Below, one piece after another: positions 11,228 to 59,412 of a DNA stretch of 64,000 nt. Under the pieces are notes generated by a model. The model saw nothing but the letters and a program-made list of their open reading frames with translations. It was not told the DNA's origin and ran no database searches. Position 1 is the first letter of the stretch. Every line of letters begins with the position of its first letter. The translations under genes and the position numbers were made by a program. This stretch comes from Eledone cirrhosa (Eukaryota): assembly GCA_964016885.1 (NCBI GenBank), contig OZ024758.1:10664001-10728000 (forward strand). Direction: 5' to 3'.

Positions 11228-11229
<2 letters not shown>

Positions 11230-11265
11230 CAAAGGAATTGTGGTAAGGAACCAGAAATACTTTTT

Positions 11266-11267
<2 letters not shown>
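11228..11267 (-). mobile_element. P1 element, internally deleted (both termini only)
   Basis: AACAAAGGAATTGTGGTAAGGAACCAG (P1 fixed end) joined to ATACTTTTTCC (hairpin end as in the 11831 copy), inside (TA)n. Confidence 0.8.
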
Positions 11268-11830: not shown

Positions 11831-12009
11831 GGAAAAAGTATGACCCCGACGGCAGAGCTCAAGCCGTTTCGTCCAGAAATAGCCGTCGAAACGGCTTGAG
11901 CTCTGCCGTCGGGGTCATACTTTTTCCTATTTCCCACTCTACTACTCTAAGTATTGAGTACTCTGGTGCGTTATGGTCCATCTGGTTCCTTACCACATTT
12001 CCTTTGTCA
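11831..12009 (+). mobile_element. P1 TA-targeted fold-back element
   Basis: Perfect ~44-bp arms (11828-11871 and 11887-11930), then a fixed ~80-bp tail ending GGTTCCTTACCACATTTCCTTTGTC; (TA)n flanks. Confidence 0.9.
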
Positions 12010-19664: not shown

Positions 19665-19666
<2 letters not shown>

Positions 19667-19808
19667 AACCAGTAAGACCCCGACAGCTGAGCTCGGCTTG
19701 AGCTCAGCTGTCGGGGTCTTACTGGTTCCTATTACCTACTCTACTACCTCAAGTATTGAGTACTTTGGTGCGTTATGGTCCACCTGGTTCCTTACCACAT
19801 TTCCTTCG

Positions 19809-19810
<2 letters not shown>
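19665..19810 (+). mobile_element. P1 TA-targeted fold-back element (short hairpin)
   Basis: Perfect ~30-bp arms with a GGCTT loop; fixed tail ending CATTTCCTTCGTT; (TA)n flanks. Confidence 0.9.
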
Positions 19811-19940: not shown

Positions 19941-20132
19941 AACGAAGGAAATGTGGTAAGGAACCAGATGGACCATAACGCACCAAATTACTCAATACTT
20001 AGGGTAGTAGAGTGGGTAATAGGAACGAGTAGGACCCCGACGGCTGAGCTCAAGCTAATTCTGGACTAATTCTGAGTCCAGAATTAGCCGTCGAAACGGC
20101 TTGAGCTCAGCCGTCGGGGTCCTACTCGTTCC
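19941..20132 (-). mobile_element. P1 TA-targeted fold-back element, inverted relative to the 19665 copy
   Basis: AACGAAGGAAATGTGGTAAGGAACC start; nested hairpin 20019-20135; (TA)n flanks. Confidence 0.9.
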
Positions 20133-22022: not shown

Positions 22023-22063
<41 letters not shown>

Positions 22064-22065
<2 letters not shown>

Positions 22066-22253
22066 AACAAGTAAGACCCCGACGGCTGAGCTCAAGCCGT
22101 TTCGACGGCTAATTCAGTACAGAATTAGCCGTCGAAACGGCTTGAGCTCAGCCGTCGGGGTCTTACTTGTTCCTATTACCCACTCTACTACCCTAAGTAT
22201 TGAGTACTTTGGTGCGTTATGGTCCACCTGGTTCCTTACCACATTTCCTTCGT

Positions 22254-22254
<1 letters not shown>
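22064..22254 (+). mobile_element. P1 TA-targeted fold-back element (longest hairpin)
   Basis: Perfect ~52-bp arms with an AGTACA loop; fixed tail; (TA)n flanks. Confidence 0.9.
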
Positions 22255-22320
<66 letters not shown>

Positions 22321-29213: not shown

Positions 29214-29794
<581 letters not shown>

Positions 29795-33467: not shown

Positions 33468-33512
<45 letters not shown>

Positions 33513-33630
33513 TGTATAAATATATTTATGTATATATATATGTGTTTATATATATATATATATATATTTACATTATGTATAAATATATTTATGTATATAT
33601 ATATATATTTATATATAATGTATGTATATG

Positions 33631-33679
<49 letters not shown>

Positions 33680-33834
33680 ACACATATATATATATATATA
33701 TACACACACATATATATATATACATATACATACATTATTTATACATATATATATAATGTATGTATATGTATATATATGTATGTGTATATATATGCATATA
33801 TTTATGTATTTATATATGTGTCTATATAAATATG

Positions 33835-33871
<37 letters not shown>

Positions 33872-33886
33872 GTATATATATATATG

Positions 33887-33961
<75 letters not shown>

Positions 33962-34006
33962 GTATATATATATGTATATATATATGTATATATATGTATA
34001 TATATG

Positions 34007-34037
<31 letters not shown>

Positions 34038-34038
34038 G

Positions 34039-34071
<33 letters not shown>

Positions 34072-34480
34072 GTATATATATATATGTATATATGTATATA
34101 TATGTATATATATATATGTATATATGTATATATATGTATATATATATATGTATATATGTATATATATATATGTATATATATATATGTATATATGTATATA
34201 TATATATGTATATATATATATGTATATATATATATGTATATATATGTATATATATATATGTATATATATGTATATATATATATGTATATATATATATATG
34301 TATATATATGTATATATATATATATGTATATATATGTATATATATATATATGTATATACATATATATGTATATATATATATATATATAAATATGTATATA
34401 CATATATATGTATATATATATATATATATATAAATATGTATATACATATATATGTATATATATATATATATATAAATATG

Positions 34481-34518
<38 letters not shown>

Positions 34519-34533
34519 TTATATATATACATA

Positions 34534-34617
<84 letters not shown>
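33468..34617. repeat. ~1.15-kb (TA)n array with TG interruptions
   Basis: Direct reading; source of the spurious YI-repeat ORFs. Confidence 0.97.
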
Positions 34618-48730: not shown

Positions 48731-49097
48731 TACTGGTACTTTATTTTATCGACCCCCGTAAGGATGAAAGGCAAAGTTAACCTCGGCGGGATTTGAACTC
48801 AGATCGTAAATGGACGTAACTCTTTGCGTCAAAGCATGGCGTCCGACCTTTTACTTAAATGTTATAATTGTTTCTACTTTTAGGCACAAGGCCAGCAATT
48901 ACCCAGTGCATTACTGATACTTTATTTTATCGACCCCGTAAGGATGAAAGGCAAAGTTAACCTCGGCGGGATTTGAACTCAGATCGTAAATGGACGTAAC
49001 TCTTTGCGTCAAAGCATGGCGTCCGACCTTTTACTTAAATGTTATAATTGTTTCTACTTTTAGGCACAAGACCAGCAATTACCCAGTGCATTACTGG
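48731..49097 (-). mobile_element. Circularly permuted S1 tandem dimer, 180-bp period
   Basis: Lines 48781 and 48961 are identical; the array begins and ends at TACTGG inside the SINE. Confidence 0.93.
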
Positions 49098-50422: not shown

Positions 50423-50519
50423 ATAATTGTTTCTATATTTTGGCACAAGGCCAGCAATTATCCCAGTGTATTACTGGTACTTTATTTAATCAACCCCGTA
50501 AGGATGAAAGGCAAAGTTA
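50423..50519 (-). mobile_element. S1 SINE, 3' half
   Basis: Reverse complement of the S1 tail and central domain. Confidence 0.9.
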
Positions 50520-51020
50520 GGGAGGCTGCCATGTCCTTGAAACAACTGAAGGGTCCTCCCAACCCTTTGTTTGGAAAGTTTTCTATGGTTGGATGCCCTT
50601 CCTATCACCAACCACTTTACAATATATACTGGGTGTATTTATCATGTAGATCAATAAATAATGGAATACAAAAACCGACCAACGGATGAATTAGTAATGA
50701 CTTTCTTTACGATACACCACGTGACAAACACTCTTGTTACTCCCACCTTTAGAAATGCTCTTATCCAATGAGTGAGGTGGTGGTGGTGGTGGGGCTGTAA
50801 CAATCGAAGCCATTGATCAGAAATTGTGATATAAAATGCATAAAGGAAACCAACCGACTGTCAGATCGGATCACTGGTCTTTCGATTGTTGATATTAACT
50901 ATTGAGCTATTGATCGAACTCCTGACAGCTGCCTCACTTTTGCTTCCGGTGACAGACGGCGGGCTTTAAATTCATAATACACAAAACTTGAGCAGGTTCT
51001 GGAAATTTATTCAGTCCGAC

Positions 51021-51205
51021 ATTGGCAGTATCGGTAGAGGGTCGGACGCCATGCTTTGCCGCAAAGAGTTACGGCCCTTTATGATCTGAGTTCAAATCCA
51101 GTCGAGGTTAACTTTGCTTTTTTATCCTTACGGGGTCGATAAAATAAAGTACCAGTAATGCACTGAGGTAATTGCTGGACTTGTGCCCAAAGTAGAAACA
51201 ATTAT
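51021..51205 (+). mobile_element. S1 SINE, near full length
   Basis: Consensus match. Confidence 0.93.
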
Positions 51206-51387
51206 AATAATTCCGTCCATACAAGATATATGAACACACACCATCAACATGAAAGACAATATTGACTTTCGCAGGATTTGAACGCAGGGAACCGGAACGA
51301 ATACCGAGGCATTTACTCCGACACTCTAACAACTGACAGAATCCTGTCAGGAGGACTGACGCTCGTCATCTTCTCAAATAAATATTC

Positions 51388-51545
51388 ATAATTGTTTCTA
51401 CTTTTGGCACAAGGCCAGCAATTATCACAGTGTATTACTGGTATTTATTTTTATCGACCCCATAAGGATGAAAGGCAAAGTTAATCTCGGCGGGATTTGA
51501 ACTCAGACCATAAAGGACCGTAACTGAGTTCAAATCCCGCCGAGA
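51388..51545 (-). mobile_element. S1 SINE, 5'-truncated, with a fold-back inversion at the 5' junction
   Basis: 22-bp inverted repeat 51485-51506 / 51524-51545 containing the B-box. Confidence 0.92.
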
Positions 51546-51874: not shown

Positions 51875-51954
51875 GGAAAGTTATATTTAAATTGTTGGGT
51901 TACAACTAGTAAATATTTATAACTGATATAAAAGCACTCAACAAGTATTTGGAG
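51875..51954 (+). mobile_element. P2 5' fragment
   Basis: Matches 11555-11637 and stops at TTGGAG, the internal hairpin. Confidence 0.8.
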
Positions 51955-51960
51955 TATATT

Positions 51961-52908: not shown

Positions 52909-54014
<1,106 letters not shown>

Positions 54015-54032
54015 TGGAGTGTGATATAAAGA

Positions 54033-54134
54033 TGTTTCATTTTAAAATGTGTTTTTATTGTATATCGACTGTTACACATCTTTCGTATATCAAGCGGTCG
54101 ATATACAATAAAAACAACATTTTAAAGTGAAACA
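54033..54134. mobile_element. Small fold-back element or MITE with ~37-bp imperfect arms, next to (TA)n
   Basis: TGTTTCATTTTAAAATGTGTTTTTATTGTATATCGAC / GTCGATATACAATAAAAACAACATTTTAAAGTGAAACA. Confidence 0.7.
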
Positions 54135-54135
54135 C

Positions 54136-54190
<55 letters not shown>

Positions 54191-54191
<1 letters not shown>

Positions 54192-54279
54192 GCTGGAACC
54201 AATGTGTGCACTCGATGACACCAGTATATATGTATATACACCCTAATATGTCATTGAGTGCACACATTGGTGCCACCTA
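54191..54279. mobile_element. Small MITE-like element with 23-bp inverted repeats
   Basis: ACCAATGTGTGCACTCGATGACA / TGTCATTGAGTGCACACATTGGT, one mismatch; TA flanks. Confidence 0.7.
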
Positions 54280-54310
54280 CAGTAATAAAAGTACTGTAAT
54301 ACATACATAC

Positions 54311-54436
54311 ATATATATATATATTATATATATTATATATATTATATATATATATATAATATATATATATATATATTATATATATATATTATATAATATA
54401 TATATATATAATATAATATATATATATATATATATA

Positions 54437-54472
<36 letters not shown>

Positions 54473-54493
54473 TATATATATATATATATATAT

Positions 54494-54540
<47 letters not shown>
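54311..54540. repeat. (TA)n/(GA)n compound microsatellite
   Basis: Direct reading. Confidence 0.95.
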
Positions 54541-56917: not shown

Positions 56918-59028
56918 ACATATATATGTGTGTGTGAGTGTGTTTGTGCTATGCATACAATTCAATAGCCAATTGCTTGCCAGATGTTTTGTGCATTATC
57001 TCTTATCTTTTGATCATATAGTGTTTGTTTTAAAGTTCTAATTTCACACTTCTAATCTCCTCTGCAAACATTGATCTACAGACTATTATGTCGTGGTCGA
57101 CTTAAGCTCACAACCATATCTACATCTGAAAAAACAACAACAACAGAGACAATAGTAACACTGTAAAGATTTATAAACATCATTAGCAATAAACAATACA
57201 GAAGTTCAATAAATAAAATATGTTAAATTGTAACACTAGAATAACAAAACATTCTTTTACGAACTGTTAACTATAAAAATACACTTCACAATTCCTCTTA
57301 TTTGAAAAGGGCGACAAAGCGCCGACATATAAAGTACAAGTGTTTTGTTTCGTATTTCTTTGTTTACTCACGTTTTCATTCTTATATTTCTAATTTACAT
57401 TATACTGGTTTACAATTTAAATAACATAGAAAACTAGAAGTTCTTGCTATCTTTTTTTAAATCAAATGTACCTATTATGAAACAGTAACACCTTCCTTCC
57501 CAAGCAAAGTATGGTGCCTGACACCTTTACCAATACTGCCAATCCTATGTCCTTATTTGATGATACGTATATTAAAATCTAAGTAAACATCCAATATCTA
57601 ATCATTAGTTATAAGATATGTTGCGAGAATCTAAGAACTACAAGAGTGGCATCATTATAATACAGATTCGTAGATTGCTTCAATTCCATTACACAGTTGG
57701 GAATATTTAGTTTTATCTTCAATACTTAATATTGATAAAACTAGAGGGAGAGGGGATCTAGAAGACCTTAAAAACGTTACTCATTATTGAGGCCACCAAT
57801 GAAATAATTTTAAAAACTCTATATTTTGCATGGGTTATATGGACCGAATTGATAATATATTAGAATAATTGAAATTTCACTGATTTCAACTTTGCAATTC
57901 TGTTGAGGTCGATAAAATAATTCCCAGTTAAATTACAAACCTTTTTAGAATTGTGAATATATAAAAAAAAAAAAAAAATATTTCTCACAAAATAAACCAA
58001 TATTTAGAAAACCTGGAAACAAATGGTTTACTGCATGCATAACCTATATTTCGGATAGAACGAAATGTGACCAGAAAGTGAATGTGATTTAATGTTGGAG
58101 TAAATTCATCGCACGCACGCAACTAATCTTCTTGGGAAAAGCATAACATTGAAAATGTCCAATTTTTGTCTCTTTCTAAATTGAGGGTCTTTATGGCCAG
58201 TCAAACGATAACAATTCCTCACTAATTTGTTGGTTTCCATCATTTGTTCATCATTTCTATAACATTTAATATTCAACTCTGCTGGTATAATTGAGTTACA
58301 GCTTTCTCTGACGATTCACAATTAAACGAATTCAATCAATGACAATTTAGCAATGGAAATTACACTATGGAAATTACCTTGATTCTTATTCATTTTATGC
58401 GAACACAACTGTATTTCAGTATTTTTCTTTTCCTATTCACATTAGAAGATTCTGTTCGTTGCTGAAGACCTTTAAATTTTCTCGTATTCCTTCTGTCTTT
58501 CAACCCTCATAGAATTATCAATGAACAGGTTCAGGTTTCCAATACAAATAAACCAATATTTAATTAGATGCTATGAATGAGGTCGTTTGTACTAGAGGTA
58601 ATCTCTAGGGCGACCCTGACTGAGAATCAACGTGAATTTCTAAAGGACACACTTTCACCCCTATATCCTCACAATACTCTCGGGAATGTCATGGAAAACA
58701 ACTGCTTTCATTCTGGGTTTTTTTCCATTTCTTTAAAGTGTAGGGAAATAATGTTTTGCGAATCAGAAGGAAATATTAGATTCTTTATTTCCAAAGCGAG
58801 AAATAAGGATCTAATGTTTTAAATAAAATAAAATGCTGTAAATAAAAAAATAAAAAAATTCAACTCCTATTTGATATCACCGAAGAACGCTATGAAATTA
58901 TAATAATTTCTTGTTGACAAATTGCTTTATATGAAATGTGAAGCGAAGTTAAATGTTGATATTAACGATATACATTGTATCAATTACATTGTTGTACGTA
59001 CATTGAAACGTGACGCTTATAAAGTAAT

Positions 59029-59412
59029 ATAATTGTTTCTACTTTTAGTACAAGGCCAACAATTATCCCAGTGTATTACTGGTACTTTATTTTATCGACC
59101 CCGTAAGGATGAAAGGCAAAGTTAACCTCGGCGGGATTTGAACTCAGAATGGCAAGGGCCGTAACTCTATGCGTCAAAGCATGGCGTCCGACCCTCTACC
59201 GATACTGTTAATCCACCGCCAGTTATAATTGTTTCTACTTTTGGCACAAGGCCAGCACTTACCCAGTGCATTACTGGTACTTTATTTTATCGACCCCGTA
59301 AGGATGAAAGGTAAAGTCAACCTCGGCGGGATTTGAACTCAGATCGTAAAGGGACGTAACTATGGTGGAAAGCATGGCGTCCGACCCTCTACCGATACTG
59401 CCAATCCACCGC
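59029..59412 (-). mobile_element. S1 heterodimer (subfamily B 59029-59220 plus subfamily A 59225-59412) inside one TSD pair
   Basis: CGCTTATAAAGTAATATAAT at 59014-59033 and 59410-59429; only AGTT between the monomers. Confidence 0.93.

What the first reader, a model, noticed from the sequence alone, without database searches (positions are those of the whole stretch)
22064..22254. P1: fold-back hairpins rebuilt at each insertion, with copy-specific substitutions mirrored in both arms
Seen in sequence: four copies share a fixed ~80-bp tail, but their arms differ: GGAAAAAGTATGA..GGCAG (11831), GGAACCAGTAAGA..AGCTG (19665), GGAACGAGTAGGA..GGCTG (20022), GGAACAAGTAAGA..GGCTG (22064). In every copy the opposite arm carries the exact complementary changes. 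The turning point differs per copy, yet the inverted arm always stops at the same internal TTCC|TAT and runs into (TA)n. Inference: one arm is copied from the other during integration (cDNA snap-back) and then anneals to the TA target through the internal TAT. Inverted 5' ends are an established feature of Penelope-like insertions.
Basis: partly seen in the sequence, partly recalled or inferred. Interest (0 to 1): 0.82.

Follow-up and report, generated by a model that had tools for sequence, protein, structure and literature searches.

The report
Penelope-type inserts copied from both ends
These DNA hairpins are real, short insertions of an abundant repeat that likely moves with Penelope-type jumping genes, and their mirror arm was likely made by both cut chromosome ends copying the same RNA from two fixed start points, not by one copy folding back on itself.

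Summary
The four hairpins are there as described, all in (TA)n; a fifth, missed copy (E, 11229-11267) exists. The inverted arm ends at TTCC|TAT in 5 of 5 copies and in thousands of reads from three other individuals. But the 'copy-specific' substitutions are common family alleles (7 of 7 at 12-36% of reads), so mirroring shows only that both arms share one source. Two copies do not fit simple snap-back: E's arms share no sequence, and C's inverted arm holds 12 nt that its main arm lacks. The anatomy (inverted 5'-truncated arm, one-sided tail, TA target, 3' half of a hammerhead-like motif) is the known Penelope-like signature, here with an 80-nt tail. Best reading: both target strands prime reverse transcription at two fixed RNA sites 80 nt apart and the cDNAs join at variable points, as the in vitro work on PAc would predict; short fold-back is seen only at a junction. 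No parent RT gene and no CUGANGA half were found. The scan reported two-ended priming before on other DNA of this genome. A variant of a known kind; moderate interest.

The parts
22064..22115 (-). Copy D inverted arm, 52 nt, outer end at TTCC|TAT running into (TA)n
   Evidence: sequence; 52/52 complementary to the main arm
22116..22173 (+). Copy D main arm
22134..22162 (+). Hammerhead-like 3' half in D: GAAA, 6-bp stem with palindromic GAGCTC loop, GTC putative cleavage triplet (after 22156), GGGGTC; no CUGANGA half found
   Evidence: motif scan, coordinates; ribozyme identity is inference
22174..22253 (+). Copy D tail, 80 nt, between the inner (22174-76 TAT) and outer fixed end; never duplicated in the inverted arm of the five window copies
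   Evidence: read loose ends behind 22176
11831..12007 (+). Copy A: 41-nt inverted arm (11831-11871), main arm (11872-11927), tail (11928-12007)
19665..19809 (+). Copy B: 30-nt inverted arm, 5-nt loop, short main arm (19695-19729), tail (19730-19809)
19942..20132 (-). Copy C: tail 19942-20021, main arm 20022-20067 lacking 12 nt, 7-nt templated fold-back 20068-20074, inverted arm 20075-20132
11229..11267 (-).
22025..22063 (.). (TA)n target tract left of D; all five copies have (TA)n on both sides, so no target duplication can be read
22254..22286 (.). (TA)n target tract right of D

Best explanation
Each copy is likely one retrotransposition event in which both cut strands of a (TA)n target primed reverse transcription on the same source RNA, at two fixed sites 80 nt apart, likely by a Penelope-like reverse transcriptase and endonuclease acting on this short non-coding template. 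Shown: two fixed outer ends (tail end and TTCC|TAT), both in (TA)n; variable inner ends; arms of one copy carry the same subfamily alleles; arms need not overlap (E). Inferred: RNA polarity (hammerhead-like half, then tail); one strand primes at the tail end, the other at the inner TAT; the two cDNAs stop independently and are joined head-to-head with 0-3 nt of microhomology, an extra base or a short fold-back; the tail is the RNA between the two start sites, so it is copied once; the enzyme is a PLE protein encoded elsewhere.
For: Inverted arm ends at TTCC|TAT in 5 of 5 window copies and in 3853, 3615 and 3463 reads of three RAD runs and 123 contigs of X1. E: arms with no shared sequence, both A-type. 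C: inverted arm holds 12 nt missing from the main arm. Of 15 joints shown (24 listed in all), 14 change strand; I read 13 as head-to-head, and in 5 of these 13 one arm starts at 22116-22126 and the other inside the tail (22185-22215); the microhomology I computed under that geometry (3, 2, 3 nt) fits the tool's values (3, 2, 3-5) for the three such rows with non-zero values; joint 22116/22185 is in all three individuals. A-type copies pass an earlier ATA (11917) before the fixed stop, so microhomology alone does not set the end. PMC11167929 (parts 1-2 of 4 read): PAc cleaves and extends both strands, starts at two internal RNA sites, the tail is the sequence between them, a dimer is predicted. 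Inverted 5'-truncated copy plus one-sided tail and (TA)n targets are PLE marks (PMC8557442 passages; PMC3846280 passages). Arms of one copy match in subfamily in 4 of 4; chance for templates drawn independently from the genomic pool is at most 0.003.
Against: No RT or GIY-YIG parent found: 0 of 86 window ORFs match such Pfam families; none of 10 short sequence motifs tied the family to the Naiad/Hydra/Chlamys sequences of PMC8557442's supplement (two isolated short hits). The tail is 80 nt, against 30-40 nt in print. The CUGANGA half was not recovered. E and C could be later deletions; A, B and D fit snap-back as well. The joint table does not show the outer ends of the long arms, so those joints also fit snap-back with 70-96-nt loops; joint 22178/22229 has both arms in the tail, which breaks the two-site rule. 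Overlapping arms from one RNA need strand displacement, a multimer or a circle, none shown. Frangieh et al. do not show an inverted product. Only 19-24% of reads at 22170-74 leave into (TA)n, so many copies may have no, or a very short, inverted arm.
Confidence: 0.62

Rival explanations
1. cDNA snap-back: one cDNA from the tail end folds back, copies itself, stops at the inner TAT and anneals to the TA target.
For: A, B and D have inverted arms contained in the main arm with loops of 5-15 nt; main arms of A, C, D start at nearly one place, as if the first cDNA ran to a preferred stop (R2 snap-backs occur after full-length cDNA, PMC11371274 passages); a 7-nt templated fold-back sits at the centre of C; Arkhipova et al. 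proposed self-priming for palindromes at PLE inverted junctions (PMC3846280 passages); it explains matched arms without further assumptions.
Against: E and C need a second event each (2 of 5 copies); it gives no reason for one exact stop in thousands of reads while an earlier ATA is passed in A-type copies; mirrored substitutions are common alleles and so are no evidence for it.
Confidence: 0.2
2. Master elements already carry the hairpin and move as DNA (MITE, or Helentron/HINE-like with a subterminal inverted repeat); centres vary by later deletion.
For: Both outer ends are fixed and E keeps both ends as an internal-deletion derivative would; the alleles are subfamily alleles; five copies cluster in 11 kb, as local hopping might give.
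Against: The repeat is not terminal (80 nt from one end); five of five centres differ and reads show many more; contigs that continue as a hairpin centre carry a small share of depth (about 21,000 at 20066-68 against about 850,000 at 20075-77); the centre of C has an insertion, not only a loss.
Confidence: 0.08
3. Arms were made or homogenised after insertion by replication template switching or arm-to-arm conversion in the palindrome.
For: No mismatch in 157 paired positions of the four perfect arms; long perfect hairpins are known to be unstable (established knowledge, recalled).
Against: The mirrored alleles are inherited family alleles, so nothing needs conversion; it does not explain the exact stop at TTCC|TAT with (TA)n beyond it in every copy.
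Confidence: 0.07
4. Assembly or polishing artefact.
For: No long read or single contig spanning a whole window copy with its flanks was seen.
Against: The arm-to-(TA)n junction is in raw reads of three other individuals and hairpin centres are in short-read contigs.
Confidence: 0.03

Closest known systems
Penelope-like element insertions with inverted pLTR and tail (Arkhipova et al. 2013, PMC3846280; Craig et al. 2021, PMC8557442; passages read, and motif searches in the latter's supplement)
   Same: Inverted 5'-truncated copy next to a direct copy, tail at one end only, head-to-head geometry, (TA)n targets (Naiad, Hydra), no readable target duplication.
   Different: Whole insert is 39-191 nt with no ORF; tail 80 nt instead of 30-40; parent clade not identified.
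PAc (Poseidon of Anolis) in vitro (Frangieh et al. 2024, PMC11167929; parts 1-2 of 4 read)
   Same: Two fixed internal RT start sites that bound the tail; both target strands cleaved and extended; AT-rich target.
   Different: That paper does not report inverted two-armed products; its sites are 30-40 nt apart; PAc is autonomous.
L1 twin priming and dual priming (Meyer et al. 2010, PMC2837659; passages read; Ostertag and Kazazian 2001 seen only as a reference)
   Same: Second target strand primes internally on the RNA, giving an inverted arm and a variable internal junction; E looks like the classical gapped product.
   Different: In L1 the internal site is not fixed and the arms do not overlap; here the site is fixed and the arms usually duplicate 30-58 nt.
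Type I hammerheads of PLE pLTRs and metazoan non-LTR retrozymes (PMC4209133 and PMC7229834, passages; 10.64898/2026.07.22.740005, abstract and outline)
   Same: GAAA, stem III with palindromic loop, GUC, conserved 6-nt strand after it; short, non-coding, very abundant.
   Different: No CUGANGA half recovered; no tandem arrays in the window; stem III is 6 bp, longer than the usual 1-2 bp.
cDNA snap-back at R2 5' junctions (PMC11371274; passages read)
   Same: Antisense copy at the 5' junction; short fold-back at the centre of C.
   Different: No fixed stop is described in the passages read, and snap-back cannot add sequence absent from the first cDNA.

Membership tests
EN+ Penelope-like element or its non-autonomous derivative | Inverted 5'-truncated copy adjacent to the 5' end (head-to-head) | tested here: met
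   5 of 5 window copies; head-to-head joints in reads; polarity itself is inferred
EN+ Penelope-like element or its non-autonomous derivative | Tail at one end only, 30-40 bp in print | tested here: inconclusive
   One-sided tail present in 5 of 5, but 80 nt long
EN+ Penelope-like element or its non-autonomous derivative | (TA)n or AT-rich target | tested here: met
   loose ends
EN+ Penelope-like element or its non-autonomous derivative | ORF with PLE RT and GIY-YIG domain, or 3' end shared with such an element | tested here: inconclusive
   No such ORF among 86 window ORFs; no genome held; no link to published consensus by 10 short motifs
Type I hammerhead ribozyme | GAAA, stem III, NUH, with C before GAAA | tested here: met
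   A, D and the inverted arm of C; the B allele keeps a G-U pair
Type I hammerhead ribozyme | CUGANGA with stem I and II partners upstream | tested here: inconclusive
   Absent from the truncated copies; loose ends upstream are mixed, agreement 0.46-0.47; no Rfam hit, but Rfam also missed the plain CTGATGA..GAAA motifs at 39.5-39.8 kb
Type I hammerhead ribozyme | Self-cleavage | not testable with these tools
   needs in vitro transcription
Type-SGC (non-circularly permuted) hammerhead | Blocks in the order site, GAAA, CUGANGA | tested here: not met
   GAAA precedes the site and no CUGANGA lies in the ~140 nt on either strand
Non-LTR retrozyme | Tandem 170-400-nt units, circular RNA | tested here: inconclusive
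   No tandem array of this family in the window; RNA not examined
MITE | Terminal inverted repeats of fixed length | tested here: not met
   One repeat lies 80 nt inside; arms of 11-58 nt

The most novel reading that the evidence does not exclude
A dimeric Penelope-type enzyme copies one RNA molecule twice, from two fixed start sites 80 nt apart, one on each strand of the cut target, so the inverted arm, the one-sided tail and the variable centre of PLE insertions all come from one two-ended reaction; this miniature family, with gapped (E) and overlapping (A-D) products side by side, is a ready 140-nt substrate to test it.
Probability: 0.45. Interest if true: 0.6.

Novelty: new variant of a known kind. 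Interest (0 to 1): 0.33.

Why it matters
How Penelope-like elements build their inverted ends and tails is named as an open question in PMC8557442. These copies are small enough to read whole, and they separate the two candidate mechanisms: gapped copies like E and unmatched arms like C are expected from two-ended priming and not from snap-back. That links the two RT start sites seen in vitro to the inverted genomic structure. The structure itself is long known, and this scan has noted two-ended priming for other families of the same genome, so the gain here is one more family, an unusually long tail and a direct case against snap-back.

Tried and rejected
No whole genome is held, so no genome-wide copy set. 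Pattern scans: metagenome contigs 0 and 0, viral contigs 0, genome contigs 17 loci, all chance-length matches of 19-28 nt. Runs X16 and X17 of other organisms: nothing laid (no proof of absence). No RNA holder listed. Rfam: window-wide search gave microsatellite and hairpin noise below gathering scores in the 150 of 279 rows shown; 0 matches on 22110-22258. Pfam: 1 weak unrelated hit among 86 ORFs. My first idea that C shows the native long stem II upstream of AGTCCAG was dropped: depth falls there and the 7 nt are a local templated insertion; a native stem II with a TAATTT 5' strand remains possible. HDV-like, pistol and type II or SGC hammerhead folds were tried by eye and did not fit (pistol and HDV consensus recalled, no call). 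A downstream 'start-site hairpin' suggested by earlier scan notes was looked at only by folding two tails and gave nothing consistent. Four joints with a partner at 22170-22174 may be split alignments of a subfamily with an indel there and were not counted as tail joints; joint 22176/22256 was left out as tail-to-tail. Paper searches for twin priming in PLEs found no paper that states it; the library lacks most subscription papers and bioRxiv supplements are closed, so this is no proof that it is not in print. Earlier-findings look-ups by sequence, near and by words were empty.

Full report
Observation. The window is AT-rich animal DNA full of microsatellites; its repeats recall a cephalopod (recall, and an unchecked scan note). 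In common orientation each of A-D reads (TA)n, inverted arm, main arm, 80-nt tail, (TA)n. The arms are perfect over 41, 30, 34 and 52 bp. Over the first 30 nt the two arms of a copy are identical in 4 of 4 copies, while copies differ at 2-5 of 30 arm positions and 2-9 of 81 tail positions. The inverted arm ends at TTCC|TAT in all. So the description holds, with corrections below.

The family outside the window. No genome is held, so I laid public runs on the main arm and tail of D and on the longest arm of C. The family is abundant: 19,651 contigs of X1 and 23,778, 24,557 and 27,730 reads of three RAD runs of the same species label were laid; these are no copy numbers. Behind 22176, 3853, 3615 and 3463 reads and 123 contigs run on into (TA)n, which is the inverted arm's fixed end seen in other individuals. 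These are 19-24% of the reads at 22170-74. Short-read contigs hold hairpin centres with indels of several sizes. The structure is therefore not an assembly artefact as a class, though no long read of these five loci was seen. The RAD library is cut at AATT (22123), close to the turning region, which limits what reads show upstream.

The mirrored substitutions. All 7 non-D alleles in the first 30 nt of A, B and C are among the 40 best-supported variants shown (114 more not shown), at 12-36% of reads in each run and from well over 100 read starts. They are subfamily alleles, not changes that arose at these insertions. Mirroring therefore says only that both arms came from the same source. That is still informative: if each arm were drawn independently from the genomic pool, matching in 4 of 4 has a chance of at most 0.003, with the caveat that the RNA pool at one time may be dominated by one source.

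Copies that snap-back does not explain. Copy E (11229-11267, minus) has the first 11 nt of the A-type inverted arm, one extra base, and only the last 27 nt of the tail, with (TA)n on both sides. Its inverted arm has no template in its other arm. In copy C the main arm lacks 12 nt, between two GC dinucleotides, that the inverted arm keeps. Either could be a later deletion, but that needs a second event in 2 of 5 copies. In reads, 14 of the 15 joints shown (24 listed in all) change strand. I read 13 as head-to-head; the microhomology computed under that geometry matches the tool's non-zero values. In 5 of the 13 one arm starts at 22116-22126 and the other inside the tail, and one of these is in all three individuals. 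The table does not give the outer ends, so these joints are compatible with E-like gapped products but also with long-loop snap-back, and joint 22178/22229 has both arms in the tail, against a strict two-site rule. A-type copies contain an ATA at 11917 that offers the same 3-nt match to the target, yet A and E stop 11 nt later at the common site, so annealing to TA does not by itself fix the end. Short fold-back does occur: the centre of C has a 7-nt insertion that is the reverse complement of sequence 4 nt away.

What the sequence is. The main arm holds GAAA, a 6-bp stem closed by a palindromic GAGCTC loop, GTC and a conserved GGGGTC, which is the 3' half of a type I hammerhead as described for PLE pseudo-LTRs (PMC4209133, passages). 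This sets the likely RNA polarity with the tail at the 3' side. The CUGANGA half is absent from the truncated copies and was not recovered from loose ends, which end in AATTT and are otherwise mixed; membership stays open. The block order excludes the SGC type that other scan notes describe for another family. The main arms of A, C and D start at (A)GT[C/A]CAG; whether this is the RNA's 5' end or a hairpin loop where cDNAs stop and anneal could not be decided. No RT or GIY-YIG frame lies among 86 window ORFs of 62 aa or more (low-complexity frames left out).

Mechanism. PLE insertions often carry an inverted 5'-truncated copy and a 30-40-bp tail at one end, and Naiad and Hydra elements target (TA)n (PMC8557442, passages; PMC3846280, passages). 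Purified PAc cleaves and extends both target strands, starts at two internal RNA sites, and the tail is the sequence between them (PMC11167929, parts 1-2 of 4). Put together, this predicts what is seen: one strand primed at the tail end, the other at the inner TAT, two cDNAs of independent length joined head-to-head, overlapping (A-D) or gapped (E), with shared alleles. It is the PLE counterpart of L1 twin priming (PMC2837659, passages), with a fixed inner site. The fixed ends, variable centres and allele sharing are shown; RNA intermediate, enzyme and two-ended priming are inferred. I noted this reading before seeing the scan's earlier notes, which give it for other families in this genome; they are unchecked and are not counted as support. 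A second, unrelated hammerhead-motif family in the window has a head-to-head pair at 39.47-39.84 kb whose arms have different stem II sequences and no TA between them, which fits priming from both ends on two different RNAs; it is one case.

Rivals. Snap-back remains possible (0.2): it fits A, B and D, is seen for R2 (PMC11371274, passages) and is close to the self-priming idea in PMC3846280. DNA-level mobility of ready hairpins, later arm correction and artefact are weaker, for the reasons listed.

Novelty. The anatomy is known. Six paper searches found no paper that states two-ended priming for PLE inversions, within a library that lacks most subscription papers; bioRxiv supplements were closed. 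New here are a miniature family with an 80-nt tail and two copies that argue against snap-back. Verdict: real, a variant of a known kind, interest 0.33.

Noticed in passing
window:11229-22253: All five copies lie within 11 kb, none in the other 53 kb; 5 random picks among 33 merged (TA)n tracts span this little in 0.6% of trials (post hoc). Local re-insertion or a permissive region.
   Followed up: partly
window:39470-39840: Head-to-head pair of a second family (CTGATGA..GAAA motif): central 19 bp perfect, outer arms with different stem II and 3' ends, no TA at the centre; looks like two different templates joined in one insertion.
   Followed up: partly
window:51956-52336: 381-bp hairpin of the second family, arms 99% identical and ending at the same site (no tail); it sits next to an upstream piece of the same family (51875-51955).
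   Followed up: partly
window:11304-11817: Two diverged (66%) opposite arms of the second family around a short central TA run, nested between copies E and A, which face it symmetrically and are both A-type.
   Followed up: partly
window:46072-46255: One-armed copy of the second family between TA runs.
   Followed up: no
window:50143-50354: 212-bp hairpin, 98% complementary, of another family, near TA runs; no hammerhead core seen.
   Followed up: no
window:30842-31176, 48731-49096, 50423-51545, 59028-59412: Tandem and inverted copies (169-195-bp units) of a repeat containing GGATGAAAGGCAAAG, recalled as an RTE/SINE-type 3' end of cephalopods; not tested.
   Followed up: no
window:22126-22170 (reads): Reads show a further subfamily with a different sequence upstream of 22126 (about 1500-1800 reads per run, agreement 0.66-0.71), changes in the stem III loop and an insertion before TTCC; a good entry point for finding the parent.
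   Followed up: partly
window:22127-22156: AGCCGTC occurs twice around ACGGCT, so the motif can fold either as the hammerhead-like stem III or as a competing hairpin with a CGAA loop; the 12 nt missing in C lie in this competing hairpin.
   Followed up: no
window:22166-22183 and 22227-22242: A loose direct repeat (GTTCCT..TACC.AC) spans the inner fixed end and recurs about 20 nt before the outer end.
   Followed up: no
window:24875-25408, 29214-29790, 33468-34617, 52909-54500: Very long degenerate (TA)n arrays of 0.5-1.6 kb.
   Followed up: no
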